From the NCBI GenBank assembly GCA_000004985.1, contig GG738882.1: a stretch of DNA of 64,000 nt; one strand, written 5' to 3'. The notes beneath the pieces were generated by a model. The model was given only the letters and a program-made list of their open reading frames with translations, made no database searches and was not told the DNA's origin. The stretch is from Naegleria gruberi. Taxonomy: Eukaryota. Position 1 is the first letter of the stretch, and each line of letters starts with the position of its first letter. Below, one piece after another: positions 7,313 to 56,266 of the stretch. The translations under genes were made by a program, and so were the position numbers.

Positions 7313-7384
7313 CTCCCGTGCCGGGAATTGAACCCGGATCTCCTGGGTGAGAGCCAGGTATCTTAGCCATTGGACCACACGGGA
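7313..7384 (-). tRNA. tRNA-Glu (anticodon CUC)
   Basis: Reverse complement: TCCCGTGTGGTCCAATGGCTAAGATACCTGGCTCTCACCCAGGAGATCCGGGTTCAATTCCCGGCACGGGAG. The acceptor stem TCCCGTG/CACGGGA and T8 are present. The anticodon stem is CCTGG/CCAGG with loop CTCTCAC, giving U33, anticodon CTC and A37. The T-arm is CCGGG-TTCAATT-CCCGG. It is very similar to canonical eukaryotic tRNA-Glu(CUC). Confidence 0.9.
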
Positions 7385-16600: not shown

Positions 16601-19600
16601 AACCCATAATATTGTAAACAACTAGGGAACCATCGTTTTGCAATACCATCCTGAATGGAGCAGTAGAAGAGCTACAAACAGGAACAAAATCTGGAACATA
16701 TTTGACAGCACTAGTAGTGTTATCCTTTTCTAAAATTCCGTTGAATGTAACGATGCCACTATTTGAAATTTCAATAGTGATATTATTGAATAGGAAATCC
16801 CACTTCTTAGCAACCACACCAGACATGGCATTTTCGATAGAAACAAAGTTAGTTCCAATCGAAAGCAAATACTTTCCATTGGCTGACTTTAAGGTTTGAC
16901 CTTCTTCCAAGACAATGCTGGAATGATTGGTTGAAATACTGTTATCAGCAGAGAGATCCAAACACAAACAAGTATCAATATCTTTACACAAACCTCTTCC
17001 TTCACAAACATTTGGATCACTATTCAAAACACCATTACACTTGTAATTATTACACATTTCGCCTTCATAAGATTTCTTACATTGACAAACGTTTGGAGAA
17101 ATACATTGACCAAAACCACTGCAAGTAGAAGGACTCTTTGAATCGACACCAAAGCAATCATATTTTTCACATTCAACACCATAGTATCCACTCTTGCATT
17201 TACAATTATTTGGACTCTTACATTCACCATTTAATGAACATGATTCATTGCTTGATTTACCATAACAGTAATAGGTTTCACACATCTGGCCAGAGTATCC
17301 TTCATGGCAAGAGCAATTATCATGAGCAATGCATTTACCAGACGAAGAGCAAACTGTTCCCTGCTCAGCATCAATATCAAAACAAGAGTAAATGGAACAA
17401 TCACTGCCTCCATATCCACTTTCACAAGAACAGTTATTAGGAGAAATACATGATCCTCTGGAGGAACATACAGAGCTGTCACTCATTAAAATACCATTAC
17501 AGTCATAGTGCTGACAATATGCTCCATAATATCCTTCTTCACATGAGCAATTATTAGATGAAGAGCACACACCATGTGATGAGCAAGCCATTGAGCTGTT
17601 AGAAAGTACTCCATAGCAAACTGGAATTTCACAAACAGCACCTCCATAGAGTTGACTGAATTGAGTTTGATTACTTGATTGATAACAAATATCACCTCTA
17701 GAATTGAACAATAACAATGTTCCTAAATCATCAAGAACCAATTTGTAATAAGAAGAAACTTTCCAATTCTTGCATTCTTCTGATTGGAATTGTCCAATAA
17801 TCAGAACGCCCCTATCACTAACATAAATGCTAGAAGCTTCCCAAGAGGAAATGACAGCACCATTACTAGTATCAACAATGATTGTAGAGTTTTCAGTGAT
17901 ATTCAATTGGAATTTTCCATTGGAAGAAATCAAAACTGATTCAAAAACTGATGTTGCATTATTTAGCAAGTAACTATTAGAGGAAGAAAGCCAATTACAT
18001 GAACATTCATCTTGAGCAACACAGAAGCCATGTCCAGAGCAAATATTACTATCATTATTAGCGATTCCACCACAAGAATATATTTCACAATTTTCACCAT
18101 AATAACCTGGTTGACATTTACAACTATTAGGGGCAGCACATTGTCCACGAGCTCCACAAACATCAGCCATTGATTTTTCAATACCACCACAATCATAGAA
18201 TTGACAATTATTTCCATAGTAACCATCTGCACATTCNNNNNNNNNNNNNNNNNNNNNNNNNNNNNNNNNNNNNNNNNNNNNNNNNNNNNNNNNNNNNNNN
18301 NNNNNNNNNNNNNNNNNNNNNNNNNNNNNNNNNNNNNNNNNNNNNNNNNNNNNNNNNNNNNNNNNNNNNNNNNNNNNNNNNNNNNNNNNNNNNNNNNNNN
18401 NNNNNNNNNNNNNNNNNNNNNNNNNNNNNNNNNNNNNNNNNNNNNNNNNNNNNNNNNNNNNNNNNNNNNNNNNNNNNNNNNNNNNNNNNNNNNNNNNACT
18501 TGTGGTACAGTAATAGAGTTCACAATTCAAACCTTGGTATCCATCTTTACATTTACATACATTTGGTTCAGAACAGTTACCCATTCCAGAACAAACACTT
18601 GGTTTCAATCTAGAAATACCATCACAATCAAAGATGTTACATTCATCTCCATAGTAGGATTGAGAACAAACACAGGTATCTGGAGCAACACATGAACCAC
18701 TTCCTGAACAAACCTTCGAATCATTGAATTCAATGCCATAACAGAGAGGAGTATTACAAATTTCACCACCATATTGAATCGTGAATTTTACATTTTCATC
18801 AGCATTGGTTTCAAAACAAATATCACCTACAGGTCCGTAAGTAATAAGTTTACCATTATTTTGAAGAACAAATCTATATGGATGACCAATTTGACTATTT
18901 GCACATTCTTGATTGAGGGTAACATTATCACCAAGAGAAAGAATACCCAAATCAGAAATTAGTAAAGCCAGTGAATCAGAACTATTTGTCTTGAATTCAT
19001 AAACAATAGAACCAGTAAGAGTATTTTCAACTCTTAAGGAATCAGTAGTGATGAAAGCTCTATAATTTCCATTATTGGAAACAATTGAAGTATTCATTGA
19101 GAGAACAAGATTGTTTTCCAATGATGAAATAATAGTATTGTTCTCAGAAGCATCAATGCAGGTACATGTGTCAATTGCAGAACAAATACCTCTTCTTGAA
19201 CAAACAGATGAATCAGTGTTTGGTAGTCCTTGACAGGTGAACGTCAAACATTGATCTCCAGTGTATCCAGCAGTGCAATTACAAGTATTTGGTGAAACAC
19301 ATGAACCGTGACGTCCACAGACTTCACTAGAGTTAAAGGCTATACCATAACAATCGTGGTTTTCACAATTATTGCCATAGTAACCATTTTGGCATTTACA
19401 ATTATTTGGAGCCACACATGATCCCATTCCAGAGCAAACATTTGATTCATTCTTGTGAATTCCGTCACATTCAAAATGTTCACACTCATTTCCGTAATAT
19501 CCATTCAAGCATGAACAATTGTTTGGAGCAGAACATGATCCAAATGAAGAACAAACTGTCGAAGCTTTCAAAATCTTTCCATAACAATCATAATTTTCAC

Positions 19601-22600
19601 AATTTTCACCATAATATCCATTTTGACATTGGCACTTATTTGGTTGAGAACATGAACCTTTTCCAGAACAAACTGAGGCATCTGAGAAGACAACTCCTGA
19701 ACATTTGTGATATTGACATTCAGCACCATAGTAACCTTCTTGGCATTCACAAGTGTTTGGAGCAACACAAGAACCAAATCCTGAACAAACATTTGTATCA
19801 TTTGGAAGTTTAGAATAACAAACTTGAGCATTACATTTTTCTCCACCATAGTATTGTGTAATATTTACACTTTCACCAGTACTTTCGAAACATTTAATAC
19901 CACTAGCAGAGTACAAAACCAAAGAACCATCATCAACCAATTGTAATCTGAAAGGATGATCAAAGATATTGCACTTTGTGTTATCATTCAAAGTGAATGA
20001 GGCTCCCTTAGATTCGTAGGTACGATTACCATAGACAGTAATGACACCTTGAGTTGAAATTTCCAATGTTTGATTAATCAAGGAAGTTCTCCATTGTGAA
20101 ACAATTCTTCCACTAACATGTTCAACTCTAAGGAATTCATAACCGAAGGATAATGCGTATTTTCCATTAGCTGAGGTGAGAGTGCTAATACCTTCCTCAA
20201 TAGCAACATTGGATTTAGCAGAACTCATAAATGTACTGTTTTCTGTAAAGTCTTTACAAGAACAAGTATTAATTGAGGAACATATACCACTTCCAGAACA
20301 AACCTCAGAGTCAATATTTTGAACACCAAAGCATTCATAAGCTTGACAAGCATTTCCAGAGTATCCGTTATTACATTGACAATTGTCAGGAGAAGTACAT
20401 TTACCAAAACCGCTACAAGCATCAGTAGAATTGAAAACTTGATTGAAACACTTGTACCATTCACAATTATTTCCATAGTACCCCTTATCACAAGTACAAG
20501 AATCTGGTTTCAAACATGAGCCCTTTCTTTTACAAACTGAGGATTCATTGAATGCAACTCCATAACATTCAAAATAGTCACAATTTACACCACTATAGCC
20601 ACTATTACATGAACATTTGTTTGCAGAATCACATGAACCGTTTCCAGAACAAGCTGATGTTTCGTTATATAATACTCCAAAACATTCATAGAGTTCACAA
20701 TTTGCTCCACTATATCCTTGTTGACAAGTGCAGTTATTGAGAGAAACACAATCACCTCTTCCAGAGCATACTGATGAATTGACATTAATAATTCCAGAAC
20801 AAGTGTGATATTGACATTTATCACCAGTAAATCCTTCAGCACAGTTACACTTATTGACTGCAATACAAGAACCACTTGAGCTACACACATACGGATTTGT
20901 AGCCATCAAACCATGGCAAACTGGAGCATCACAATTGATGCCTCTATAACCAGCATTGGCTGCATTAGAAATGGATGATTCACTATTGTTAGTAGACCAA
21001 CAAAGTCCACTTTCTGAAATCAGTTCTAAACCAAAATCACTCAAGAATAGTCTGACTGTGCCAGATTCAGTACAACTGGCAATTGTATCTGTTTTTTGAC
21101 TAGTTACAATAATGAGAGAGTTACCACTTAATCTTAAATTTGGTTGGGAATTGTATGACCATTGTTTTCTAACTTCCATAGTAGCTGTTTCAATAACAGA
21201 AACGTTATATTTACCAACAAGTAATTGTAAGATTTGGTTTGGTGATCTTAATGTGCTGTTTTCACTCAAAACAACATTGTCATTACTAGTAATAATTGAT
21301 TCAGGAGTAATGTCCATACAAACACAAGAATCTGGTGCTGAACATACACCCCTACCTCCACAAACACTTGTGGTATTACTCTTATTGATTCCATTACAAT
21401 AATAGGTATTACAATTGCTACCACTATATCCTTGTTGGCAGTTACATGTATCTGGAGAATTACATGAACCATGATTACTGCAAACTCCATTCGTATTATA
21501 AGGAATATTGAAGCAATTATAGCTTGAACATTGCTGACCATAATAATTATTATTACATTGACATTTTTCTGGAGATTGACATGCACCCCTACCTGAACAA
21601 ACAGTAGCAGTATTCTTGAAACTAGTTCCAAAGCAATTATAATTTTCACATTGTAAGCCATAATATCCTTGTTGACATACACAGTTATCAGGACTAGAAC
21701 AAGTACCCCTTGATGAACAAGCTGAAGAAGAAGAATGGGAAACACCATAACAGGAGAAAGTTTCACAATTAGGACCAGAATATCCAGTATTACAAGTGCA
21801 GTTATCTGGTGAAGTACATGATCCTTTTCCTGAACACACAGATGCATTAGTATATAACACTCCATTGCATGTGTATTTTTCGCAATCAATACCAGTGTAT
21901 CCTGTATTACATATACAGTTGGCATTTTTACATGATCCATGTTTAGAACACACTCCTATATTATTTTCTCCTAGTGTATTACAATAGAAATTGGTACACT
22001 CTGCCCCACCTACTGAGCTAAGCAAATTTTGGTATAAGGCAGTACAAATATTACCTAGAGGATTTGCTATAACCAAGTTACCAGTATTGTCAATTACTAG
22101 ATAGAATATAGATTTATCCTTGCAAGAATATACACTTGGAGCTGATGATGTAATTGCCACAGTTTCGTGATGTCTTAAAACGCTAGGATAATTATCCAAG
22201 TAGAGGTAACCATCATAGCTGTCTATTTGAAGTGCAATGCTTCCAAATTTTTCAAGAATTAATGCACCATTAGAGGTATATAATTTGTGTCTTCCATTAG
22301 GAGATATTAAGGAAATATCAGGTTTGCTAATTCTTCCTGGGTTAATTACGAATGAATTGGTTGAAGTAATCTTTGCTTTTGAACAGTCACATTCACCAGG
22401 AGAGACACAAAATCCATTTGAGCTACAAGAAGTATTTGAAGTGGACAATTCATTGTAACAATAATAGTCAGCACAAGTACTTCCACTATATCCAGCCTTA
22501 CAAACACAGTTATCTGGTGAAGTACAAGAACCATGGCCGGAACACACAGATGCATCACTGTTTAAAACGCCATCACATGTGAACTTTTCGCAATTAGTTC

Positions 22601-25600
22601 CAAAATAACCACCGCTACAAGTACAAGCTCCTTCTGAACAATTACCTTGACCTGAACAGACACTACGACTGGTCTCCAGTACTCCATTACATTTAGTCAA
22701 TTCACAATCTGTACCTGCATATACATTTAACACTGCAAGGTTGATTGCAGAACAAATATAAGATCCTTGATAAACAACCAAGTTTCCAGTATTTTCTAGT
22801 ACAAGCGTATATTGAGAATTACGATCACAAGAATAAGAAGTAGAAGTAAGAGAGGTAATAGTTAACTGTTGATGAACATCGGACAACACAAGCAAATGAT
22901 CAGAAACATATAAATATTTGTTGTCTGTAGCCTGCTTGAAAAGAAATTGTTGAATTGTTTCACCTTTTCGTTTCAAGTCAAAGGATTGAGTTCCTGATTG
23001 GAATTTGTATTTTTCATTTGTGGAAGTGAGTGCAAAATCTGAATACTGGTTACCATGGCTCATTTTGTAATGGTTTTGATTGACGCCACCTATTAGCTTT
23101 AGTGTGCTACATTCACATTTATCAATATCATAACATTGGCCATTACCTGAACATGAAAGAGGAGATGAGTAGAGAACTCCACTACAGTGGTAATCAGAAC
23201 ACCATGTGCCACTGTATCCTGTTTTACATGAACATGTATTCTTATCAATGCAAGAACCATGTCCTGAACACACACTAGTAGAGGTATTTAAAATGTTATT
23301 ACAAGTGTACAAGTGACATTCAATACCTCCTAACCCAGTTGGACAAGTGCAACTTTCTGTACTGTCACATTTTCCAATACCACCACAGACAGTAGGGTCT
23401 GAATGGTTCTTTCCATTGCAGTACCAATTGTCACAAGTAGGTCCCGAATATCCATATTGACAATGACAAGTATCAGGAGCAAAACAGTAACCTTTGCGAC
23501 TGCAAACAGAACTATCGCTGTTTGCCTTTCCGTGACAATAATAGGTTCCACAGGTGGTTCCAGTATAGTTTGCCTTACATGTACACACATTTGGAGTTAA
23601 GCATTCTCCATTTCCATTGCAGGCATTACCATTTGTATCGAGTGGACATTTTGTAATTTCACAATAATCTCCAAAATAGCCATCCTCACACTTGCAAGAA
23701 TTTACGCCAATGCAAGTACCACGCGAACTACAAACGGATGAATTTGTTGGAGAAATTCCATTGCATGTAAATGTTTCACAGTTTGATCCATTAACCAAAG
23801 ATTGTGTGGTACTTTCTGCAACGTAATAACTATCTTTTGTTGATGCATAACATTTACTTCCATATCTATCTCTTGTAACCAATTGACCATTATTTTCAAG
23901 ATTCACCGTAAATGGATATCCATAACATGGATAAGTTTCCACCGTGTAAGGCATGTTTCCATAATCACCCTCAAAAGTAGGTTTTCCCAAAGCATCCAAA
24001 AAAAGTTTTGTTGAATAGTAATTATTATATATCGCCCAAATAACAGATCCTGTTTTGAGATTATAAACAAATGCGTTAGAATAATTTGGGAAACTGAATT
24101 TGTATTTTCCATTTGGTGAATACAAGGCAACACCAGAAGAATCAACTTGGAAAAAGGAATCTGACTTTGACAATGCGTAAGTTCGGGATTTAGTAGGTAC
24201 ATCAGCACATTTACATGTATCATAGCTAGTACAATAACCTTGTCCAGAACAGACTGCAGATAAATTGGTAGCACTTACTCCAAAACATGTGTAATTTTCA
24301 CATGCAATTCCTGAATGACCAAAGTTGCATTGACAATTATTTGGAGAAACACATTTACCATTATAAGAACACGAAATTGGCAATGAACTGTCATAGCCGT
24401 TACAAGCAAACTTTTCACATCTAGTGCCACTATAACCAGCTGTACAATTACAAGTATTTGGAGCAATACATTGACCTCCAGATGAACAAACTGTTGAGGA
24501 ATTCCAAGCAATACCAAAACATGCTTGTATTTCACAAGATTCTCCAATGTGACCATCTTTACATTGACATGTGTTTGGTTTAGTACATGAACCTAATCCA
24601 GAACAAACTGAACTATCGTTATGCTCGTATCCAAAACAGTCAAAATATTCACAAACATCTCCATAGTAACCTGGCAAACATGAACAATTGTTTGGTGATG
24701 TACATTGTCCATGTGCTGAACATACCGAACTATTGGTAGAGAAAATATTATTACACTCATACTTTTCACATGTAATTCCATAATATCCAGGTTGACATTG
24801 GCAATTATCAGGTTCAACACAAGTACCATGAGATGAGCAAACCAAAGATGAATCAAATGGAGTACCATAACAATTTGAAAGTTGGCAATTATTTCCAAAA
24901 TAGGAGGAATTAAATGTACTGTTTGAACCAGTTGAGTAACAAACATGTCCAAGATGATAATTAACTAGCAAGAGATCACCATTATTAGTGAGAACAATTC
25001 TGAATGATCCTCCAGCACAGTCTATTTCTCCAAAGAGTTTAGAAGCACTTTCTTCAGTTGCATTTATGGAAATATAACCATAAACCAAAACAGTACCATT
25101 GGAATCAACTTCAATTCTTTGATTCCAAAGACCAGTTGACCAAGTTTTCATAATACTGTTTCCAGAAGTTATCATAATTTTGTTGTCTTGAATAATGAAT
25201 TGATATTTTCCATTAAGGGAATACAATTCACTGCCGTTCATCATTACAGTAGAATTACCATCAAAATAGAATGAATTTCTCGATACAAAATCAAAACAGG
25301 TACACTTATTTGGAGAAATGCAAACACCCTTTCCAGAACAAACATTTTCATCGTTTCTATTCAAACCATCACATTCGAATTCAGTGCAATTATCTCCGTA
25401 ATATCCTGTATTACATTGACAAGTATCAACTGCAATACATGAGGCAAAAGCTGGACAAGCATCAGGTGAGAATCTCGAAATACCGTTACATGCCCATTCT
25501 TGACAATTACTACCAGAATATCCTGGCTTACATTCACAGTTATCAACATGAGTACAATTACCAAAACCAGAACAAACCATACTCGAATTTGCACTCACTC

Positions 25601-28600
25601 CAAAACAAGTATCAAATTCACAAAAGTTTCCAGTGCGATTACTGAAACAATTACATTCATTCGGTCCAACACATTCACCATTTGAAGAACAATTTCCAGA
25701 GCAGGTAAATTGGTCACAATTCAATCCAGTCCATCCTTCCTTACATTCACATGTTGGTGGAGATTGAGTACCCTCATTGGTGAGACATTTGCCATTACCA
25801 GAACAAACTCGAGGAGAATTGAAAGTAATTCCAAAACAGCCTAAAACTGCACACTCCTCGCCAGCATAATATCCTTTACATTGACAGGTGTTTGGTGAAG
25901 TACAAGAGCCATTTCCTGAACAAACACTTGAATTATCGTGAGCAATACCAAAGCATTCAAACATTTCACAAATGTGTCCCCTGTATTCTGAATTACATTT
26001 ACATGTATTTGGTGAAACACATTTACCTTTTCCAGAACAAACACTTGAATCGCTCTTATAAATCCCATAACAAGCAAACTTTTCACAAAGGTCTCCATAA
26101 TAGGTTGAATTACATTGACACTTCTTTGGACCAACACAAATTCCCTGTTGATTACATTCAGATGTAAATTGAGCAGAATCAAAACATTCAAATTTTTCAC
26201 AATTAGAACCAAAAGCTCCTTCAACACATGAACAAGTTTCAGGGGCTACACAATTTCCATTGCCACTACACACACTAGAATTTGAGGAAAGAATACCATT
26301 ACACTTAAACTCATTACAAGCACCAAACAGATACTTGTAAGTGCTATTGACAGAGATGGTATAACAGAGCACATTGGCTGATGTGTAAACTGCCAAATCA
26401 CCTGTATCTTGGAGAACGACAGTAAATTGGCCTCCTTCACAAGTTTGATCAGTAATTGGTGTTGATATGACATTGACTGTGGAATTTCCATCTTCTTCAA
26501 TGGTAACATTTGAAAAAGTCAATTCTAATTGACCATTGGCAGATATTTTCAATTCTGCTTCGGAACTTTCAGAATTTACTTGATACAACAATTCATTGGT
26601 CTTGACATTCATAATGGAAAAGTTGCCTTGATTCATTGTTGCCTTATAAATTCCATAGGTTGAGGAGAGTGAACTGTTTGAAGAAAGAACAATTCCTCCT
26701 GTAGTGGCAATCTTGAAATTATCAGAACTAATCTCTCCAATACATTGACATTCATCAACGCCCACACAAATTCCCTTTCCAGAACACACCTTCTTGTTAT
26801 TACTCAAAATACCATAGCATGTGAAATCTGAACAATTATCACCAGTGAACCCAGTATTGCATTGACACTTATTTGGACCAATACATTTACCATTCCCACT
26901 ACAAACGTTGGAAGAAGAAGGATCGATATCATTACATGCAATATATTCACAATTTGTACCATTAGCTCCAGCAGCACAATGACATGTATCATTTGCGACA
27001 CAAACACCATTACCAGAACAGACCAAAGAAATGTTTGCGCTTGGAATACCTGCACAGTAAATAGGTGGTTCTTCACTTTGGGTAGAATTGGATGTATCTA
27101 TGAAGGTGGAATTATCAGTTGATGTTCCATTGTTTTCAGAACTAGTTGAATTATTATCAATCAAAGTACTGTTATCAACGAGTGTGCCATTTTCAACTTT
27201 TGTACTATTATCAGAGATAGTACTGTTATCAACAAGCGTGGAATTATCAGTCAAAGTACTATTGTCTGTTAAGGTACTGTTATTATCATCACTAGGTAAA
27301 GTTTCATTACCACCAGGTACAGTACTATTGTTATCAACTTGTGTACTATTATCATTTGTAAGAGTACTATTATCAAAAATAGTGGAATTTTCATTCAAGG
27401 TACTGTTATCACTAATGACTGTTTCATTACCACTTGGTAATGTACTGTTATTAATGAGTGTGACATTTTCAACTTGTGTGCTGTTATCAACAGTTGTTTC
27501 GTTAGCATCTGATACTGTACTATTATCAACTTGTGTACTATTATCAGAGATAGTACTGTTATCAACCAGAGTGGAATTATCAGTCAAAGTGCTATTATCT
27601 ATCAAAGTACTATTATCAACTTGTGTACTATTATCATTTGTAAGAGTACTATTATCATAAATAGTGGTGTTTTCATTCAAGGTACTGTTATCACTAATGA
27701 CTGTTTCATTACCGCTTGGTAATGTACTGTTATCAATTAAAGTACTGTTTTCAGCAAGAGTTGAATTTTCTCCTTTTGGCAAAGTTTCATTATCAAAGGA
27801 AGTAGTATTATCAACAGTTGTTTCATTACCACTTGGTAAAGTACTGTTATCAACGAGAGTGCCATTTTCAACTTTTGTGCTATTATCAGAGATAGTACTG
27901 TTATCAACCAGAGTGGAATTATCAATCAAACTACTATTGTCTGCTAAGGTACTGTTGTCTGCAAGCGTAGAATTATCCTCAGTTGGCAAAGTTTCATTAT
28001 CAAAAGAAGTGCTATTTTCAGCAATTGTTTCATTAGGCATTTGATGCTGTACTATTATCTATCAAAGTACTGTTATCAATGAGTGTGCCATTTTCAACTT
28101 GTGTGCTGTTATCAATTAAAGTGCTGTTATCAACAAGAGTTGAATTATCTCCCTTTGACAAAGTTTCATTACCAAATGAAGTGCTGTTATCAACAGTTGT
28201 TTCGTTAGCATCTGATGCTGTATTATTGTCAATCAAAGTACTGTTATTTTCAACGAGTGTACTATTATCACCAGGTAAAGTCTCATTACCATCTGGTAAT
28301 GTACTATTATCAGCCAAAGTACTGTTATTTTCAACTTGTGTACTATTATCAGAGATTGTACTATTATCAACAAAAGTTGAATTATCAATCAAAGTACTAT
28401 TATCTATCAAAGTACTGTTATTATCATCACTAGGTAAAGTTTCATTACCACCAGGTACAGTACTATTGTTATCAATTAAAGTACTGTTTTCTGCTAGAGT
28501 GGAATTTTCTCCTTTTGGCAATGTTTCATTATCAAAGGAAGTAGTATTATCAACCGTTGTTTCAATACCTCCTGGTAAGGTACTATTATCAACAATTGTT

Positions 28601-38796: not shown

Positions 38797-39162
38797 TTTT
38801 TAATTAAATTGAAATATGATGATTCTTCGACTGGCGATGCTGATGAAATATTGCGAGTCAATCAAAATGCTGTATGGAATGAAACTTCCTCTTCAATTTG
38901 AACTCGGATATGAAATAGCTTCAGCCACAATATTGAATTTAAATTGATTAACAATAACCCATGCAAATTTACACCAAAAACTAGAATATTCGATGAGAAT
39001 TTTTATTTTGTTTTGAATTTTAAAAAAATGTTCGTTAGATAGCGCGGCAATTTGTTGCTAGTATTCAATTATGCTTCTTGAATCATCAAGTGGAGACACA
39101 ATTAATAGGAAAATCACATAAAACATAAAACATCACATGACTGCAAAAACAATTAGAACAAG

Positions 39163-40272
39163 ATGAAGATAGGCTACGTTGGTATGAATAGGGCACTCAA
39201 ATTAACAACCTCCAATACAACCCGATTGAATAATGTTTCTCCAAAGAAGATTAAAGAAAAATTGCTAGTTAATATTGATCACTTGAAAAAGATGCTCAAG
39301 TGGAATGTTCAGAAGAATTTGCTCTTCTTTAGAATTGGAAGTGAATTTGTGCCATTTGCTAGTCATGAAAAGGTTCGGGATGAAGAATTCAAGCAAGAAT
39401 TTAATTGGATTGAGGAATGCGAAGATGATCTAAAGGAGATTGGAAAGTTTGTAAAGGAAAATAATATTAGAATTAGCATGCACCCTGATCAATTTGTATT
39501 GATTAATTCACCTGATATGGAAATATTCAATAGATCCTATGAAGAATTGAACTATCACGCTCAATTGATGAATACTATGGGATTAGATACCACTCATAAA
39601 TTCCAAATACATTTGGGTGGAAAGTATGATGACAAGAGAAAGTCAATGCAAAGATTTGTTGATCGATACAAGAATAATTTGAATGATGCTATCAGGGCTC
39701 GATGTGTATTGGAAAATGATGATAGAATTTATAGTTTGGAAGATGTGTATTGGATACATCAACAATGTGGCATTCCAATTCTCTTTGATACATTGCATCA
39801 TGAATGTTTGAATTCAAATGGTGACTCTTTAGAAGTGGCATTCAAGAAAGCTGCTAGTACTTGGGATCCGGTTAAGGATGGTGTTCCTCTTATTGACTAT
39901 TCAGATCAAGAACCAGGTGCACGTATTGGAAATCATAGAAAGAGCATTGAATTGAAGCATTTCAAGAAGGTAATTTGTGACAAGTTAATGAAATGCAAGA
40001 ACGATGATGGAGAATTTATTGAATTTGATGTCATGTTGGAAATCAAGGATAAGGACGCTAGTGCCATTAAGATCTTACCAGTCTTTTTAAAAGGTGTTGA
40101 GGATAGAGAAAAGGATCCAGAACCAACTGAGGATGACAATCAAGAAGATTTAAAAGTCCAAGTATTAGAGGAAGATGAGGACGAAGCAGTATCGAGTGAG
40201 GAAGAAAAACCAAAGAAGAGAAAGAAGGCACCAACCAAGAAGGCATCCACTACCAAGAGAAAGAAAAAATAA
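39163..40272 (+). CDS. uvdE: UV damage endonuclease (UvdE/Uve1 family) with a Lys-rich, NLS-like C-terminal tail
   Basis: 'MKIGYVGMNRAL...NLLFFRIGSEFVPFASH...IRISMHPDQFVLINSP...LNYHAQLM...FQIHLGGKYDDK...RCVLENDDRIYSLEDV...CGIPILFDTLHH' matches conserved UvdE blocks. These are GyvsiN, fRisSdlfPfash, iRlSmHPdqF, LeyHa, vviHlGG and LvLENDDk. The tail is '...KPKKRKKAPTKKASTTKRKKK'. Confidence 0.85.
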   Translation: MKIGYVGMNRALKLTTSNTTRLNNVSPKKIKEKLLVNIDHLKKMLKWNVQKNLLFFRIGSEFVPFASHEKVRDEEFKQEFNWIEECEDDLKEIGKFVKENNIRISMHPDQFVLINSPDMEIFNRSYEELNYHAQLMNTMGLDTTHKFQIHLGGKYDDKRKSMQRFVDRYKNNLNDAIRARCVLENDDRIYSLEDVYWIHQQCGIPILFDTLHHECLNSNGDSLEVAFKKAASTWDPVKDGVPLIDYSDQEPGARIGNHRKSIELKHFKKVICDKLMKCKNDDGEFIEFDVMLEIKDKDASAIKILPVFLKGVEDREKDPEPTEDDNQEDLKVQVLEEDEDEAVSSEEEKPKKRKKAPTKKASTTKRKKK

Positions 40273-46406: not shown

Positions 46407-46412
46407 TAAAAA
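46407..46412 (-). terminator. Pol III T-run terminator immediately 3' of the 5S gene
   Basis: Plus-strand 'aaaaa' at 46408-46412 gives TTTTT on the minus strand directly after ...GTAGTC. Confidence 0.6.
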
Positions 46413-46530
46413 GACTACAGCACCACAGGTTCCCAAGTTGTCTCCAACCTCAGTACTGATGTGGCTCGACGATGCTTAACTTCTCAAATCGGACGGGATG
46501 AGGTGCATTCATCGTGATATGGCCGTAGCC
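46411..46530 (-). rRNA. 5S ribosomal RNA gene (solitary)
   Basis: Reverse complement: GGCTACGGCCATATCACGATGAATGCACCTCATCCCGTCCGATTTGAGAAGTTAAGCATCGTCGAGCCACATCAGTACTGAGGTTGGAGACAACTTGGGAACCTGTGGTGCTGTAGTCTT, 120 nt. It carries canonical 5S blocks (GGCCATA, CATCCCGTCCGAT, AGTACT, GGTTGGAGACAAC, GGGAAC, GGTGCTGTAG). As I recall the Dictyostelium 5S rRNA, it also has 'GGTTGGAGACAAC'. Confidence 0.9.
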
Positions 46531-50530: not shown

Positions 50531-52441
50531 TTAATAAAAATATGCTTGCTTCTTTGAATTATAAGTTTCTTCATCTAGACAGACCAGTGAACAGTCTCTA
50601 CATTTAGTAAAGCATGCAACAATATCCTCTGGATTAGTGACAAGTACAGGAATTGAATCACTAAGAGGAACTCCCTTTTTGAATGCTTCTGGTGCGTACT
50701 TGACTAAAAGCTCTTTGTTTAATCTGTAAAAGAAATAGGTTGAGACAGGAGTTGGGTTAACAAGGAACCATTGCAAAACTTCTTCTTGCTGTTTCACATC
50801 AAATAAGGAGACAATTTCCATTGCTCTACTGTGTCCAATATTTTGTGAATTATGAGCAATTCCTTCTTTTAAGAATGTCCTACACCACTTTTTCCTTACT
50901 TCCATATCACAATAATTACTTAAGATTTGTGATCCCAATACAAATGCATAAATGTCTGGTTGTTTTCTTGCTAGTTCCAAAATCTTTTCCATATTTTCCT
51001 CATAGTTTTGATAGGTAAAAGGTGGTAATCCCCATGCCTGTAACACCTTTGATTGTATTGAATTATTCTCATCCCTAAATTGTAAAAATAAAGATGGTTT
51101 GGTATCGGCTATCATTTTTACTATTCTTGGATCTTCAGTCACCTTGGTTGAAAAGTTAACTATTGATTGAGGATTGATTGCAAAAAGTTTCTTTGCAAGA
51201 GGTCTGCAATCTTTCCAGAAGGCCGGCAAATAAGTGATGAGGCTTGGATTTTTCATCAATATCATTTCAACAATTTCCTTGTCTTGTAATAGTTCTTCTT
51301 GATTCAAAAATGCAGGGAAAGATGTCATATCTTCAATTTGATTGATTCCTTTGATTACCAATTTGCGGAAACCAGGGGTAGAGTAGGGAATATATTCCAA
51401 AGAGTAAGGTTTGGAAGAAACAGCAATTTCTAATAATTCTTGATGATTTCTCAGAAAATTAGAACTGAGATATTTGATAGCAAATCCATTTTGTTTTACA
51501 GCTTGAGTGACAACCTGCTTATCTTGCAAAAACTTGGTGCAATATTTTAACATTTTACCATGTGAGTTGACCAATCGAAGGCAAAAATCTCTATCTTCCA
51601 AGAAGGATTGAGGTATTTCCTTACCAATCTTGTAGTAAATTTTTGCAGCCTTTACAAGAAAATCTGGATCATTGAATTTTGGAGAGATTGCACTAATGGT
51701 CTTGGCAATTTGTTGAGGAGAAAGATCACGAGCTGTAAAATGTTTCAATAAACAAAGAGCTAATGGAGTGGATGTCACACCTGCAGGTAGTCGATTAAAT
51801 ATTTGTCTTCCACAAGCAATTTTACAATACTTTTGGAAACTATCTGCCTCAATTGTAAACATTGATGAAGGTGGATCGAATAGAGCATCCCATATATTAG
51901 TTTTTGTATTGTAATGGCCACTTGTACTAATAACAAGGTTATTATATTTCCCATTCGGAACTAGGACAATGTTATCACTAATACTAACAAGGTTATTCGT
52001 CTTTTCCCATAACTTGATTGGATATATCCAGTGTGCAGGATACGAATAATATGAATAGCTGGCAACATTCATATCTTCATCGAAATGTCTCGTCATCATC
52101 AGTAACTCTTTAATAATAAATGGAATTTTACAATTTAATTCAGTTTCAACTCTTTCAAATTCCTGTTGATATCGTTCTCTATATTCATCATCACAATCAA
52201 TTAATTGAAATTTATCAATCAAATGTTCATTATAAATAGTCAAATACTCCCGAAACACTCTACGAAAATAATTTAAAAAGGTGGCAACAAGTTGTCGATT
52301 CGTCACTCTAAAATTGCTCGATTCTCTGAATGGAATAAAACTGAATAATAATTCTAAAATTTCCGATGGTAAATCAAGTAATTTATAAAGATGATTGGAG
52401 GTGGTGGAAATTGTTGTGATCATAGTTTGATCGTGTTGCAT
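50531..52441 (-). CDS. F-box-like protein with DUF4116-type repeats
   Basis: The N-terminal F-box motif is 'LLDLPSEILELLFSFIPF'. The C-terminal half contains 'DKQVVTQAVKQNGFAIKYLSSNFLRNHQELLEIAV'-type DUF4116 repeats. Confidence 0.55.
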   Translation of the reverse strand: MQHDQTMITTISTTSNHLYKLLDLPSEILELLFSFIPFRESSNFRVTNRQLVATFLNYFRRVFREYLTIYNEHLIDKFQLIDCDDEYRERYQQEFERVETELNCKIPFIIKELLMMTRHFDEDMNVASYSYYSYPAHWIYPIKLWEKTNNLVSISDNIVLVPNGKYNNLVISTSGHYNTKTNIWDALFDPPSSMFTIEADSFQKYCKIACGRQIFNRLPAGVTSTPLALCLLKHFTARDLSPQQIAKTISAISPKFNDPDFLVKAAKIYYKIGKEIPQSFLEDRDFCLRLVNSHGKMLKYCTKFLQDKQVVTQAVKQNGFAIKYLSSNFLRNHQELLEIAVSSKPYSLEYIPYSTPGFRKLVIKGINQIEDMTSFPAFLNQEELLQDKEIVEMILMKNPSLITYLPAFWKDCRPLAKKLFAINPQSIVNFSTKVTEDPRIVKMIADTKPSLFLQFRDENNSIQSKVLQAWGLPPFTYQNYEENMEKILELARKQPDIYAFVLGSQILSNYCDMEVRKKWCRTFLKEGIAHNSQNIGHSRAMEIVSLFDVKQQEEVLQWFLVNPTPVSTYFFYRLNKELLVKYAPEAFKKGVPLSDSIPVLVTNPEDIVACFTKCRDCSLVCLDEETYNSKKQAYFY

Positions 52442-52585: not shown

Positions 52586-54295
52586 TTAGAGTTTTGTCTT
52601 TTTGTACATGGACTTGAGTGCCTTTTGTCTAAGATCTTCCATTTCTTCAACGGATCGTTTGTTTTCTCCTCTATCAACTTTGATTCGGTCAGTTTCGTAA
52701 ATGGAGGCAAGATTTTTCTTTACTTCATCCTTTCTAAAGTTCTTTTCATAGGTTGCTAGATTGTGGACCTTAGCTCCTAAGGCAGTGGTACAATTTCTTG
52801 AAACCAAATTAGAAAGTTCAGCAATTTGTTTCAACAATTCACTTTCGTTTTCAATTTTTTTGTACTTTTTCAAATATTGTTCAAGAATGAAAACTTCAGA
52901 TCTGCAATCATAACAATGATCCATTCCTTCAACTTGCACGTTGTGTGGATAATAGTGAACTCTTGTTCTGGTATTGAAATAAAACATTTGACTTTCGTAT
53001 TTTGCAGTATCGTATGGAATAGTTCCACAATCTTTTGAACATACTAATCTTGTTTCGGTTGTTGTTTGAGGTCCCCATACTGGCAAGTAAATATCTCCCT
53101 TCAAATATTCATAGCTCTTCTCAGATTGTGTATCATAAGGTAGACGAAACTTGAGCATGGACATTTTTGGTTTAATTGTCAAATGCCAATTCATTTGTGC
53201 TTGATTATCCCACTTGACACACTTTTCAATCTCCTCACGGTGCTCTACTGTTTGATTTTCATTTCCCTTCTCTGGTTGAGCTGTTCTAATATCACTAATA
53301 AACAACACATTTTTATCAGCATACTTTGCAGCCAACTCATCAGTAAAGAAATCATTCACAATTGTAATCTTATCTGTTGGTTTACAAACAAATGGACTTG
53401 GATCTACAAGTACGAAACTCAAATCAGGAAATAAATCACTCAAAAAGTTTGTGTGGTGGCCAGGAGCAGCACCTGCATAAACAACAATTGCACCAGGATA
53501 ACCAAATTCAGTTAAGAATTCAATTTCTGACATGAGTAATTTACGTTGACCCCAGTGAATGACACTCTTCAACTCTGACTTTCTTCTACGGTAAGTTTCT
53601 TGAGGATCGTGTGGTTGGAGTATACGATTGGTTCTATCGAATGGTTTCTCTTCAATGTGTGGATCATTGTAGTGCAATATTTGTTCACAATGTGGATTTG
53701 ATTTCTTATCTGGCCATTCGTAATTTTCATATTGTTTCTTTCGGTAGGAGAGAACGAATTGATTGGGAGCTCTGTTGAATTGATGGTAGAATCGAACTCT
53801 TCCTTGCGGTTGTTGATAGGAAGATGTATAGGAATGTGGAGGAGAATATCTATCCTCATCCCTTTTTCTGAATCCTGCTTGTCTGATATAAGAAGAAGAA
53901 GAAGCAGAAGCATGATAATATTCTTGTCTACCATATGAAGGCCGTTCTTCTCTTTCTTGATAATGAACATGAGAAGAATGGAAAGGCCTTATGTTGCCAG
54001 CATTTCGTGCCTTAATTGGTTTTCTATCCTGATAAGGGGACGCAGAGGAACCAACACTGAAGCGTTCTTCTTCCTCATGATATTGGTGTTGGTAATTTCG
54101 TTGTTTATTATCTGAACGATAAGAAGAATTATCAACAACAAAATTATCCCTTCTGGAAGAAATGTATTGCCTATTGCTGGAGCTGCTAAAAGTTGAACGA
54201 GTTCCATCTGGTTGTTGAGGAGTATCACATTGTCGAGAACGTTGGAGGTTGTTGTTGTGATTATTGTTGGTTTGAGGGTGGCCACGATTGTTCAT
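52586..54295 (-). CDS. Poxvirus VP39-like mRNA cap (nucleoside-2'-O)-methyltransferase homologue with an RS/RY-rich N-terminal region
   Basis: The catalytic domain aligns with vaccinia VP39. 'HWGQRKLLMSEIEFLTEF..GAIVVYAGAAPGHHTNFLSDLF' matches 'YQGQLKLLLGELFFLSKLQ...[22 protein letters not shown]'. 'VLFISDIRT' matches 'IILISDVRS'. 'FRLPYDTQ...YLPVWGPQTTTETRLV' matches '[34 protein letters not shown]'. Residues ~1-230 are low-complexity R/S/Y/Q-rich, e.g. '...RSDNKQRNYQHQYHEEEER...YRRRKS'. Confidence 0.7.
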   Translation of the reverse strand: MNNRGHPQTNNNHNNNLQRSRQCDTPQQPDGTRSTFSSSSNRQYISSRRDNFVVDNSSYRSDNKQRNYQHQYHEEEERFSVGSSASPYQDRKPIKARNAGNIRPFHSSHVHYQEREERPSYGRQEYYHASASSSSYIRQAGFRKRDEDRYSPPHSYTSSYQQPQGRVRFYHQFNRAPNQFVLSYRKKQYENYEWPDKKSNPHCEQILHYNDPHIEEKPFDRTNRILQPHDPQETYRRRKSELKSVIHWGQRKLLMSEIEFLTEFGYPGAIVVYAGAAPGHHTNFLSDLFPDLSFVLVDPSPFVCKPTDKITIVNDFFTDELAAKYADKNVLFISDIRTAQPEKGNENQTVEHREEIEKCVKWDNQAQMNWHLTIKPKMSMLKFRLPYDTQSEKSYEYLKGDIYLPVWGPQTTTETRLVCSKDCGTIPYDTAKYESQMFYFNTRTRVHYYPHNVQVEGMDHCYDCRSEVFILEQYLKKYKKIENESELLKQIAELSNLVSRNCTTALGAKVHNLATYEKNFRKDEVKKNLASIYETDRIKVDRGENKRSVEEMEDLRQKALKSMYKKTKL

Positions 54296-54529: not shown

Positions 54530-56266
54530 CTACTTGGAAGATAATCCGTAATTCATGTTGAATAGTTCTTGTATTTCAGTCGAATCCAAGAAGGGTTCCA
54601 AATCTGTTTCCACTTCCGAGCCAGCTGAGAAACTATCCAAAAAGCTGTTTAAACTTTCTTCATATTCCTTCATTCGGTGTTGAACTAGATTTTCATCCTC
54701 CCTTTCTGTTGTTGGAGTCAGGTCATTAAGATTGGAGATGTATTGGAAAAACTCATTGGCAGATTCAATTTTTGATAAATCCACAGTTGGGGGAGAAAAG
54801 CTCTGATTGGTAATGCATTCATTGAGGGCGTTATAGAATTGTTTCCTCTCAATTATTGTTTCAATTTCCTTAATCATATTGTGGTGGAAGAGTTGAACAC
54901 CCTTGTATCGTTTAGAGAGAATTTGAAGAGCTCTCAAATCTTTTGAAAGCACCTGATAGTAATCAATGGCACCTAGAGGAGAAGAAACGTCACAATTCTT
55001 GCGATCTCCCTTTTCAATGAGTTTAACAATTTGCAAATGGATTTTACAAGCAGCAGCAATTGGAGCAATCAAAAAGGAAGGAGAAAATGATAATTGGCCT
55101 GATTCAGTTGTGGTGGTTATTTTCAAAGCGCATTCTTCAATTTTATCCTTTCCTCTATTCATTTCAGTATAAATTCTAATCTTGAGTCCATTTCCAACAA
55201 TTTCTGCAATATCATTAAGAGTTCCAGAAACCCTCTGATTCTTCATCATCATTCCTTTACAAATACTAATTACAGCATCCAACATTTGAATGAAAATCAC
55301 ATAGGTACTCTCTGTTAATTTCTGGTCCAAAATCATACTCCACTCCTTTGGGAACTTGACGCCAATATGTTTTTCAGCAATTTCATGCCAATCTTTTAGC
55401 ATTCCCATAGCCGTATTCTCACTCTTGGCTTCACAGGTAAGAACTTGCTTGAATTTTTTCAAATTTATCTGATACTTTGTTGCTTTTAAATCGTCAATTG
55501 GGTTTTCATCTAAATAAAATTCAACAAATTTAAGGTAAAATCTAGCAGTTTTCAATTTTCCACATCCAATTTCATAACATGCCAAGTATGCATAGGCACT
55601 TGCTACATAAAAATTAGAGTGTTCATCGAAAATCTTGCTGAGAGCATCTCTGGCTTTACGTGCTGATTCATCTGCTGTTGGTGATGCAAGAGTTTCCTGC
55701 TCAATTTGTGCCTTAATAGCCATAAACATGGCCTTGACCTCTTTACAATTCGGTAATGAATCATCCTTACTCAATAAATAAGTTTCCAATTCCTTCGGAT
55801 TAATAACCCAAATCTCAGACATCATTTCTTCATAAATATCCAAATATTTCCTCATCTCTGCAAACTCATTAATTGTCTGATAAAGATTTCCTCCAACTCC
55901 AACTCCAGCACTAATATTACTTCCATTACCACCAATAGAAGAATTTGTAATAATACTTCCTGAATTAATTGTCAAATTATTAATCGAAATTAAATTATTA
56001 CAAGTTTCATTGAACGATGAATTTTCCATCTGGAATGTAATCTTTCCATCATTATTTGATTTCTTCTTCTTCCGAATCCTAGAGGCTCCCTTCTTTGCCT
56101 CTTCATAAACACATTCAACCTTCCTCCATTTACATCCACTACATGATGGCAATGCCCGATCGCAACATTTATGAAGACGTTTACAATTATTGCATGCTAT
56201 TGGATGGAATTGTGGTTTTTCTTCATCTATTGTGCCTGGTGATGGTGAGGATAATGGTTGTTGCAT
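54530..56266 (-). CDS. Zn(II)2Cys6 binuclear-cluster transcription factor (second copy of the class in the window)
   Basis: The N-terminus carries 'ACNNCKRLHKCCDRALPSCSGCKWRKVECVY' followed by a basic stretch 'RIRKKKK'. It is a single continuous ORF. Confidence 0.7.
   Translation of the reverse strand: MQQPLSSPSPGTIDEEKPQFHPIACNNCKRLHKCCDRALPSCSGCKWRKVECVYEEAKKGASRIRKKKKSNNDGKITFQMENSSFNETCNNLISINNLTINSGSIITNSSIGGNGSNISAGVGVGGNLYQTINEFAEMRKYLDIYEEMMSEIWVINPKELETYLLSKDDSLPNCKEVKAMFMAIKAQIEQETLASPTADESARKARDALSKIFDEHSNFYVASAYAYLACYEIGCGKLKTARFYLKFVEFYLDENPIDDLKATKYQINLKKFKQVLTCEAKSENTAMGMLKDWHEIAEKHIGVKFPKEWSMILDQKLTESTYVIFIQMLDAVISICKGMMMKNQRVSGTLNDIAEIVGNGLKIRIYTEMNRGKDKIEECALKITTTTESGQLSFSPSFLIAPIAAACKIHLQIVKLIEKGDRKNCDVSSPLGAIDYYQVLSKDLRALQILSKRYKGVQLFHHNMIKEIETIIERKQFYNALNECITNQSFSPPTVDLSKIESANEFFQYISNLNDLTPTTEREDENLVQHRMKEYEESLNSFLDSFSAGSEVETDLEPFLDSTEIQELFNMNYGLSSK

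What the first reader, a model, noticed from the sequence alone, without database searches (positions are those of the whole stretch)
39163..40272. UV-damage endonuclease (UVDE/Uve1) with a nuclear-targeting Lys-rich tail
There is a clear UvdE signature (fRisSdlfPfash, iRlSmHPdqF, viHlGG, LENDD). UVDE provides an alternative excision-repair pathway for CPD and 6-4 photoproducts and is patchily distributed in eukaryotes. It fits a soil amoeba exposed to UV. The C-terminal KKRKK tail suggests nuclear localisation.
Basis: established knowledge. Interest (0 to 1): 0.55.

Follow-up and report, generated by a model that had tools for sequence, protein, structure and literature searches.

The report
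Naegleria UV-damage endonuclease with charged tail
This is an ordinary, intact gene of the amoeba Naegleria gruberi for a UV-damage DNA-repair nuclease; it is of the type found in bacteria and archaea rather than fungi, carries an added charged tail that probably sends it to the nucleus, and was already listed as a member of this enzyme family in a 2018 paper's supplement.

Summary
Window 39163-40272(+) is one uninterrupted 369-aa ORF, 100% identical to Naegleria gruberi "predicted protein". It matches Pfam UvdE (E=1.6e-55) and passes the TIGR00629 equivalog cutoff. An AlphaFold model superimposes on Sulfolobus UVDE (TM 0.96, rmsd 1.1 Å). All metal ligands, the Gln-Phe probing finger and the dipurine pocket are present.

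Residues ~318-369 form a disordered tail, acidic then basic (KKRKK-x9-KRKKK). Prokaryotic homologues lack such a tail; heterolobosean orthologues have one of similar composition. It is under purifying selection (dN/dS 0.13; basic block 0.03). A nuclear localisation signal is the best reading but is untested.

One correction: this is not a fungal-Uve1 orthologue. It shares 44-50% identity with prokaryotic UvsE and 28-32% with fungal enzymes. It has the Sulfolobus-type M/L-x-D signature, not fungal K-x-H, and falls in a 95%-supported heterolobosean clade marked by two private insertions. That fits ancient horizontal acquisition independent of fungi.

The protein (XP_002674735.1) is already an OTU in a published UVDE tree (PMC6264785 supplement). 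Low interest: known family, known gene.

The parts
39163..40272 (+). Complete single-exon CDS (369 aa + TAA) of N. gruberi UV-damage endonuclease
   Evidence: ORF list and sequence; 100% identical to P0001 'predicted protein [Naegleria gruberi]'
39163..40113 (+). Catalytic TIM-barrel domain, residues 1-317
   Evidence: Pfam UvdE covers residues 13-267 and TIGR00629 covers 9-304. AF2 pLDDT is mostly >90 up to about residue 317. Foldseek: 3tc3 TM 0.96, rmsd 1.1-1.2 Å
39325..39366 (+). FFRIGSEFVPFASH (res 55-68): contains dipurine-pocket residues F65 and S67, plus H68
   Evidence: Aligned to SacUVDE L65/S67/H68; roles from PMC3553973
39379..39399 (+). Heterolobosea-specific insertion 1 (about 7 aa, res 73-79) after the FASH strand
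   Evidence: Alignment blocks: present in Naegleria, Willaertia, Acrasis and u6; absent from prokaryotic, giant-virus, rotifer and fungal proteins
39466..39495 (+). IRISMHPDQF (res 102-111): metal ligand H107 and probing finger Q110-F111
   Evidence: Equivalent to Tth H101/Q104/Y105 and Sac H100/Q103/Y104
39604..39621 (+). QIHLGG (res 148-153): metal ligand H150
   Evidence: Equivalent to Tth H143; invariant column in 119-sequence alignment
39709..39723 (+). LENDD (res 183-187): metal ligand E184
   Evidence: Equivalent to Tth E175 (mutated in PDB 3c0q); invariant E184/N185/D186
39784..39801 (+). FDTLHH (res 208-213): metal ligands D209 and H212
   Evidence: Equivalent to Tth D200/H203; invariant
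39889..39903 (+). LIDYS (res 243-247): subtype signature L243-x-D245 replacing Thermus/fungal K229-x-H231
   Evidence: M/L/I-x-D in Sulfolobus and all heterolobosean and top prokaryotic hits; K-x-H in Thermus and 12/12 fungi
39934..39936 (+). Codon for H258, metal ligand
   Evidence: Equivalent to Tth H244; invariant
39982..40011 (+). Heterolobosea-specific insertion 2 (about 10 aa, res ~274-283)
   Evidence: Alignment blocks
40033..40053 (+). MLEIKDK (res 291-297): metal ligand E293 and conserved K295/K297
   Evidence: Motif search and invariant columns; aligned to Sac MLEVKDK
40093..40206 (+). Acidic segment, res 311-348 (VEDREKDPEPTEDDNQEDLKVQVLEEDEDEAVSSEEE); from about res 318 it forms the first half of the disordered tail
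   Evidence: pLDDT 39-55. The 58 residues after the core are 33% D+E. Indel-tolerant but in frame versus close relative L001
40207..40269 (+). Basic C-terminal block, res 349-369 (KPKKRKKAPTKKASTTKRKKK): putative bipartite NLS
   Evidence: Pattern match; dN/dS 0.033 over residues 346-369 versus L001; unique among the window's ORFs, shuffle P about 0.002

Best explanation
The ORF encodes a catalytically competent UV-damage endonuclease (UVDE/UvsE family, Sulfolobus-like subtype) of Naegleria gruberi. Residues 1-317 form a TIM barrel with a three-metal (Mn2+-type) active site. By analogy with SacUVDE and TthUVDE, the Gln110-Phe111 finger flips the pyrimidine dimer and the two opposite purines into separate pockets (purine pocket F65/S67). 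A metal-activated hydroxide then nicks the strand immediately 5' of a CPD or 6-4 photoproduct, without ATP. That nick starts alternative excision repair, which host flap-endonuclease, polymerase and ligase complete. Residues ~318-369 are a eukaryote-specific disordered tail, acidic then basic. Its terminal bipartite K/R cluster most likely acts as a nuclear localisation signal, and it may also help non-specific DNA binding. The gene was probably acquired once from a prokaryotic-type lineage by an ancestor of Heterolobosea, independently of fungal Uve1. It then gained the tail and two small insertions. Shown here: family, fold, active-site residues, tail features, selection and clade structure. 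Inferred: enzymatic activity, substrate range, nuclear import and direction of transfer.
For: Family: PF03851 E=1.6e-55; TIGR00629 at 154 bits exceeds its 124.45 equivalog cutoff; SacUVDE 3tc3 E=7e-63 over residues 1-308.
Fold: AF2 pLDDT 88.5, pTM 0.83; Foldseek 3tc3 TM 0.96, rmsd 1.1-1.2 Å; 2j6v TM 0.93-0.94; next families at E>=7e-8.
Residues: H107, H150, E184, D209, H212, D245, H258 and E293 align with the Tth/Sac metal ligands; Q110-F111 finger; F65/S67 pocket; all ligand columns invariant across 119 homologues.
Tail: 15 of 120 top hits have a tail of at least 25 aa (the named ones are heterolobosean or rotifer; the rest are unnamed metagenome/SRA proteins); the other 104 measurable proteins have a median of 4 aa. 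It is disordered. dN/dS is 0.128 for the tail and 0.033 for the basic block, against 0.031 for the core. The double basic cluster is unique in the window, P about 0.002.
No presequence: in-frame stop 3 codons upstream.
Genuine nuclear gene: GC and GC3 match the neighbours; single-exon orthologues sit among eukaryotic genes on 0.5-0.7 Mb contigs of N. lovaniensis and Willaertia.
Origin: 44-50% identity to prokaryotic UvsE versus 28-32% to fungi. The K-x-H (fungi+Thermus) versus M/L-x-D split has 100% bootstrap and the heterolobosean clade 95%, with two private insertions.
Against: There is no biochemical, expression or localisation data for any heterolobosean UVDE.
The Thermus carboxylated Lys229 is replaced by Leu. 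The active Sulfolobus enzyme also lacks it (Met), so this is not disqualifying.
SacUVDE, the closest solved relative, prefers 6-4PP and barely cuts AP sites (PMC3553973), so the substrate range here is uncertain.
Some orthologues vary at recognition positions: N9 is Cys in N. lovaniensis and N. fowleri, and finger Gln is His in Willaertia and Acrasis.
NLS regexes are unspecific. One bipartite 'match' lies inside a barrel helix at residue 28.
The tree is neighbour-joining on 290 columns with limited eukaryote sampling. The position of the heterolobosean clade within the prokaryotic radiation is unresolved, so the donor and even the direction of transfer are inferred.
Confidence: 0.8

Rival explanations
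1. The enzyme identification is right, but the tail is not primarily an import signal. It would instead be a chromatin- or DNA-interaction module: a basic block for non-specific DNA sliding, an acidic block for autoinhibition or histone contact, or a nucleolar retention or partner-docking segment.
For: The tail is bipolar, with about 38 acidic-rich residues before the basic block, more than a minimal NLS needs. Tails in Acrasis-group proteins reach 108-187 aa. The acidic part is retained in all heterolobosean orthologues. Disorder fits an interaction segment.
Against: The strongest constraint falls on the terminal K/R block (dN/dS 0.033), not on the acidic part, which tolerates a 7-aa indel. 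Prokaryotic UVDEs work on DNA without any tail (PMC3553973). The two functions are not mutually exclusive.
Confidence: 0.2
2. The protein acts mainly in mitochondria. This follows reports, recalled from the literature and not read here, that fungal Uve1 also acts in mitochondria (S. pombe, Cryptococcus). The basic tail would then be irrelevant to nuclear import.
Against: The protein starts directly with the first barrel strand (MKIGY aligns with Met1 of SacUVDE). An in-frame TAG sits 3 codons upstream, so there is no room for an N-terminal presequence. All five named heterolobosean orthologues likewise start 0-1 residue before the conserved strand.
Confidence: 0.05
3. It is a different TIM-barrel enzyme (endonuclease IV/AP endonuclease or a sugar epimerase/isomerase) that only resembles UVDE.
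For: There is a weak sub-threshold Pfam AP_endonuc_2 hit of 20.3 bits. Nfo and epimerase structures appear in the fold search at E 1e-7 to 1e-5. This is expected, because UVDE and Nfo share a superfamily.
Against: AP_endonuc_2 is below its 31.1-bit cutoff, while UvdE is 165 bits above its own. TM to Nfo is 0.67-0.68 with rmsd 5.7-5.8 Å and 15-16% identity, against 0.96, 1.1 Å and 38% for UVDE. UVDE-specific finger and pocket residues are present.
Confidence: 0.01
4. The gene is an ancestral eukaryotic UVDE inherited vertically and lost in most lineages. The similarity to prokaryotic UvsE would then reflect slow evolution rather than horizontal transfer, and fungi would hold the divergent or separately acquired copy.
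For: The gene is fully ameliorated and present across Heterolobosea. Support for nesting the clade inside any particular prokaryotic group is weak. Other protists (Tetrahymena, Volvox, Monoraphidium) also have UVDE according to the OTU list of PMC6264785, and they could not be sampled here.
Against: The closest non-heterolobosean sequences are spread over many bacterial and archaeal phyla at 44-50% identity. The rotifer copy does not group with Heterolobosea (3.5% bootstrap). The fungal clade is separated by a 100% split and a different active-site signature. The very patchy eukaryotic distribution would require many losses.
Confidence: 0.2

Closest known systems
Sulfolobus acidocaldarius UVDE (SacUVDE; PDB 3tc3, 4gle)
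   Same: Best solved relative: E=7e-63, 38-40% identity, and the model superimposes at TM 0.96 and rmsd 1.1 Å. It has the same M/L-x-D signature at Tth 229/231, the same metal ligands, a Gln-aromatic finger and the Ser67 purine pocket.
   Different: The Naegleria protein lacks the Cys14-Cys40 disulfide (it has L14 and H40) and Tyr10 (it has R10). It has Phe for finger Tyr104 and Phe for Leu65. It carries two extra insertions and a tail of about 52 aa. It comes from a mesophilic eukaryote, not a thermoacidophile.
Prokaryotic UvsE of the M-x-D type (DPANN archaea, Methanomicrobia, WOR-3, Babeliales, Weeksellaceae and others)
   Same: These are the closest non-heterolobosean sequences, at 44-50% identity over the full barrel. 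The finger (Q-F), pocket (F65/S67) and ligands are identical.
   Different: They are about 290-300 aa with a median of 4 residues after the last helix. They have no acidic/basic tail and neither heterolobosean insertion.
Fungal Uve1/UVDE (S. pombe Uve1, N. crassa Mus-18 family; sampled here from Tuber, Fusarium, Umbelopsis, Tulasnella and others)
   Same: Same Pfam family and the same presumed reaction and pathway role. Like this protein, they carry eukaryote-type extensions with basic clusters beyond the barrel.
   Different: Identity is only 28-32%. All 12 fungi have K-x-H, not M/L-x-D. They are separated by a 100% bootstrap split. The sampled fungal proteins are longer overall (386-537 aa). 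This protein is therefore not a Uve1 orthologue.
Bdelloid rotifer UVDE (Adineta; reported as HGT from an archaeon, PMC6264785)
   Same: A eukaryotic M-x-D-type UVDE at 44% identity with added basic extensions. It is a parallel case of a prokaryote-type UVDE domesticated in a eukaryote.
   Different: It does not group with Heterolobosea, lacks their two insertions, and has both N- and C-terminal extensions. The acquisition was probably independent.
Endonuclease IV (Nfo/Apn1)
   Same: Same TIM-barrel superfamily with a trinuclear metal site; it nicks DNA 5' of lesions.
   Different: Sequence identity is 15-16%, TM 0.67-0.68, and Pfam AP_endonuc_2 is sub-threshold. It lacks the UVDE finger and dipurine pocket.

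Membership tests
UVDE/UvsE (Pfam PF03851; TIGR00629) | Profile-HMM score above the curated family threshold | tested here: met
   PF03851 188.7 bits versus 24; TIGR00629 equivalog 154 bits versus 124.45. The Bacillus-type model NF002640 is not met (111 versus 456), as expected for a different subtype.
UVDE/UvsE (Pfam PF03851; TIGR00629) | TIM-barrel fold superimposable on solved UVDE structures | tested here: met
   AF2 pLDDT 88.5; 3tc3 TM 0.96, rmsd 1.1 Å; 2j6v TM 0.93-0.94
UVDE/UvsE (Pfam PF03851; TIGR00629) | Ligands of the three-metal site (Tth H101, H143, E175, D200, H203, H231, H244, E269; residue list recalled from the TthUVDE literature, numbering checked against PDB mutant names K229L/E175A) | tested here: met
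   H107, H150, E184, D209, H212, D245 (Asp as in active SacUVDE), H258, E293; invariant columns
UVDE/UvsE (Pfam PF03851; TIGR00629) | Probing finger Gln-Tyr/Phe, and a dipurine pocket of Leu/Phe plus Ser | tested here: met
   Q110-F111; F65 and S67; roles from PMC3553973
UVDE/UvsE (Pfam PF03851; TIGR00629) | ATP-independent, Mn2+-dependent incision immediately 5' of CPD and 6-4PP | not testable with these tools
   Requires an enzyme assay
Fungal Uve1 orthologue group | Clusters with fungal UvdE and carries the K-x-H active-site signature | tested here: not met
   L243-x-D245; 28-32% identity; opposite side of a 100% bootstrap split
Endonuclease IV / AP_endonuc_2 (PF01261) | Profile score above the gathering threshold; best structural match to Nfo | tested here: not met
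   20.3 bits versus 31.1; Nfo TM 0.67-0.68, E~4e-7 to 8e-7
Classical importin-alpha bipartite NLS | Two basic clusters separated by a linker of about 10-12 residues, in an accessible, disordered region | tested here: met
   KKRKK-APTKKASTT-KRKKK at 351-369; pLDDT about 50-55 for the last two 10-residue blocks. This is only a pattern match.
Classical importin-alpha bipartite NLS | Necessary and sufficient for nuclear import | not testable with these tools
   Needs a reporter fusion or deletion experiment

The most novel reading that the evidence does not exclude
Heterolobosea acquired a prokaryote-type (Sulfolobus-like, M/L-x-D) UVDE once in their common ancestor, independently of fungi and of bdelloid rotifers. 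They then 'eukaryotised' it by adding a disordered acidic-basic tail carrying an NLS and two lineage-specific insertions near the DNA-binding face. UVDE would thus have entered eukaryotes at least three separate times, each time converging on added basic targeting extensions.
Probability: 0.55. Interest if true: 0.35.

Novelty: already known. Interest (0 to 1): 0.2.

Why it matters
It matters modestly. The result confirms that a free-living amoeboflagellate has a one-enzyme shortcut for repairing UV photoproducts, and so do its relatives, including the pathogen N. fowleri. That is relevant to UV disinfection of Naegleria in water. It also corrects review statements that eukaryotic UVDE is restricted to fungi (PMC8307549). 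Finally, it is a clean example of a prokaryote-type repair enzyme being fitted with a eukaryotic targeting tail. It does not open a new mechanism or a new family.

Tried and rejected
1. Foldseek against afdb50 was meant to give named eukaryotic relatives, but the library was not available.
2. An S. pombe Uve1 core recalled from memory served only as bait for a database search. Its best hit was 63% identical, so the recall was imperfect. I did not use the bait in any analysis, only the returned real fungal sequences.
3. Phage collection: homologues are at most 30% identical, so there is no sign of a phage donor.
4. IMG/VR scan: one giant-virus MAG (L004) has an M-x-D-type UVDE at 45% identity. 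It does not join the heterolobosean clade (22% bootstrap), so a viral donor is not supported.
5. Weak PDB hits of residues 31-94 to archaeal PCNA (E 0.015-0.3) and of the tail to Bin2_C (E 0.17) look like compositional or helical noise. Residues 31-94 are confidently part of the barrel.
6. The sigma-70 promoter and terminator scan found fewer sites than shuffles and is irrelevant for a eukaryote.
7. Local synteny: the genes flanking UVDE differ between N. gruberi, N. lovaniensis and Willaertia, so synteny adds nothing beyond showing a eukaryotic context.
8. Literature searches for Naegleria together with UVDE, Uve1, UvsE or 'UV endonuclease' found no main-text mention. The only trace was a supplementary OTU table.

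Full report
**The observation**

Window 39163-40272 (+) is a single uninterrupted ORF of 369 codons, with an ATG start and a TAA stop. An in-frame TAG lies three codons upstream of the ATG, so no longer N-terminus is possible without splicing. The actual strings are FFRIGSEFVPFASH (55-68), IRISMHPDQF (102-111), QIHLGG (148-153) and LENDD (183-187). The C-terminus reads KPKKRKKAPTKKASTTKRKKK (349-369).

**Source organism**

The protein is 100% identical over its full length to 'predicted protein [Naegleria gruberi]' on a 381-kb contig. The window fits an intron-poor eukaryote. It has about 33% GC, long ORFs, a standalone 5S rRNA gene and a tRNA-Glu gene. The gene's GC (0.35) and GC3 (0.34) lie within the range of its neighbours. 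Single-exon orthologues sit among ordinary eukaryotic genes (JmjC, ribosomal L24e, PRA1, PH-domain) on 0.5-0.7 Mb contigs of N. lovaniensis and Willaertia magna. Contamination is therefore excluded.

**Family membership**

- Pfam UvdE scores E=1.6e-55 (188.7 bits, cutoff 24). The related AP_endonuc_2 model stays below its threshold (20.3 versus 31.1 bits).
- The NCBIfam equivalog TIGR00629 is passed (154 versus 124.45 bits).
- The best solved structures are Sulfolobus acidocaldarius UVDE (3tc3/4gle, E=7e-63, aligned from Met1 to residue 308) and Thermus thermophilus UVDE (2j6v, E about 5e-41).
- An AlphaFold2 model built on 119 homologues has mean pLDDT 88.5 and pTM 0.83, with a barrel over residues 1-317.
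- The model superimposes on SacUVDE at TM 0.96 and rmsd 1.1-1.2 Å, and on TthUVDE at TM 0.93-0.94.
- The next structural families are sugar epimerases and endonuclease IV. They start at E about 7e-8 with TM at most 0.68.

**Active site and recognition residues**

I mapped residues through alignment to the two crystallised enzymes. The numbering was checked against the PDB mutant names K229L and E175A. The list of Thermus metal ligands is recalled from the TthUVDE literature, not from a paper read here.

- Metal ligands present in the Naegleria protein: H107, H150, E184, D209, H212, D245, H258 and E293.
- Probing finger: Q110-F111 (Sac Q103-Y104).
- Dipurine pocket: F65 and S67 (roles from PMC3553973).
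- All ligand columns are invariant across 119 homologues.
- At the Thermus K229-x-H231 position the protein has L243-x-D245. This is the same type as the biochemically active Sulfolobus enzyme (M228-x-D230).
- The Sulfolobus Cys14-Cys40 disulfide is absent.

Nothing in the sequence argues against catalytic competence, but activity itself is inferred.

**The tail**

- Residues ~318-369 are predicted to be disordered, with pLDDT 39-55.
- The last barrel helix is followed by an acidic stretch that runs to residue 348. A basic block (349-369) then fits the classical bipartite NLS pattern, KKRKK-x9-KRKKK.
- Among the 120 best database homologues, 15 have at least 25 residues after the core. The named ones are heterolobosean or rotifer proteins; the rest are unnamed metagenome or SRA-assembly proteins. 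The other 104 measurable proteins have a median of 4 residues.
- All five named heterolobosean orthologues have tails of the same acidic-then-basic character, although the sequence itself is not conserved.
- I compared the gene with a relative that is 93% identical in protein sequence (L001). dN/dS is 0.031 for the core, 0.128 for the tail and 0.033 for residues 346-369. Indels in the acidic part stay in frame.
- No other long ORF in the window has a double basic cluster. Shuffling the protein or the tail alone reproduces one in about 0.2% of trials.

The tail is thus a real, selected, eukaryote-specific addition. An NLS is the most economical reading. A DNA- or chromatin-binding role is a live alternative and is not exclusive. 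The lack of any N-terminal extension argues against a mitochondrial presequence.

**Relationship to known UVDEs**

- The protein is 44-50% identical (268-297 bits) to prokaryotic UvsE from many archaeal and bacterial phyla.
- It is 40% identical to SacUVDE and 33% to TthUVDE.
- It is only 28-32% identical (111-162 bits) to real fungal UvdE/Uve1 proteins from four fungal phyla.
- All 12 fungi and Thermus carry K-x-H. All heterolobosean, rotifer and top prokaryotic proteins carry M/L/I-x-D.
- In a neighbour-joining tree (290 columns, 200 bootstraps), the split of fungi plus Thermus from the rest has 100% support.
- Naegleria, Willaertia, the Acrasis group and one unnamed sequence form a clade with 95% support.
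- The rotifer protein does not join that clade (3.5%).
- The heterolobosean clade shares two private insertions, at residues 73-79 and ~274-283.
- A giant-virus MAG encodes the same subtype at 45% identity but does not group with the clade. Phage homologues are at most 30% identical.

The best reading is a single, ancient acquisition of a prokaryote-type UVDE in Heterolobosea, independent of fungal Uve1. The donor and the direction of transfer remain inferred, because the clade's position inside the prokaryotic radiation is unresolved.

**Prior knowledge**

No open-access paper mentions Naegleria together with UVDE, Uve1, UvsE or 'UV endonuclease' in its main text. A 2021 review states that UVDE occurs only in fungi, bacteria and a few archaea (PMC8307549). 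However, the supplementary OTU table of the UVDE tree in Hecox-Lea and Mark Welch 2018 (PMC6264785) lists 'Naegleria, XP_002674735.1, Naegleria gruberi', along with Tetrahymena, Volvox and Monoraphidium. The protein has therefore already been recognised and used as a UVDE homologue, and public databases carry its Pfam assignment. I found no prior description of the subtype assignment, the tail analysis or the clade-specific insertions, but these are incremental.

**Verdict**

The finding is correct and ordinary. It is a well-conserved member of a known DNA-repair family in a sequenced genome. It carries a plausible, untested nuclear-targeting tail and has a probable horizontal origin distinct from fungal Uve1. 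Interest is low (0.2) and the novelty class is 'already known'.

Noticed in passing
window 7619-28040 (-): Two overlapping giant ORFs: 13569-28040 (4823 aa, dozens of EGF/teneurin-type EGF repeats) and 7619-14995 (2458 aa, REJ domain plus EGF). They probably form one surface-protein gene of about 7000 aa, split by an intron or frameshift near 13.6-15.0 kb, where GC drops to 0.24.
   Followed up: partly
window 52586-54295 (-): A 569-aa ORF matches Pfam PF01358 (poxvirus poly(A) polymerase regulatory subunit / VP39-like cap 2'-O-methyltransferase) at 79 bits. This is a virus-type domain in a eukaryotic genome.
   Followed up: no
window 54530-56266 (-) and 50531-52441 (-): A fungal-type Zn2Cys6 binuclear cluster protein and a DUF4116-repeat protein lie next to each other.
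   Followed up: no
window 46412-46530 (-) and 7313-7384 (-): A standalone 5S rRNA gene (105 bits) and a tRNA-Glu(CTC) gene are dispersed among protein-coding genes.
   Followed up: no
window 39137-39166 (+): A nine-codon upstream ORF (MTAKTIRTR*) has a TGA stop that overlaps the UVDE start codon (ATGA). It could be a chance feature or a translational control element.
   Followed up: no
L004 2956-3876 (+) (IMGVR GVMAG-M-3300009084-79): A giant-virus metagenome-assembled genome encodes an M-x-D-type UVDE that is 45% identical to the Naegleria enzyme. It has no tail and does not cluster robustly with Heterolobosea.
   Followed up: partly
P0013 (359 aa) and P0094 (Adineta, 406 aa): These eukaryote-like UVDEs carry N-terminal basic extensions of 63 and 51 aa. 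P0013 has no long C-terminal tail, while Adineta also has a 65-aa one. This suggests convergent addition of targeting segments at different ends.
   Followed up: partly
L001 23-140: The 929-nt SRA-assembly contig carrying P0004 has a 118-nt piece at its 5' end that matches the UVDE gene in inverted orientation. It is likely an assembly chimera, and I did not use it in the dN/dS calculation.
   Followed up: yes
orthologues P0002, P0003, P0005, P0009: Recognition residues vary within Heterolobosea. Asn9 is Cys in N. lovaniensis and N. fowleri, and the probing-finger Gln is His in Willaertia and the Acrasis group. This may shift lesion preference.
   Followed up: no
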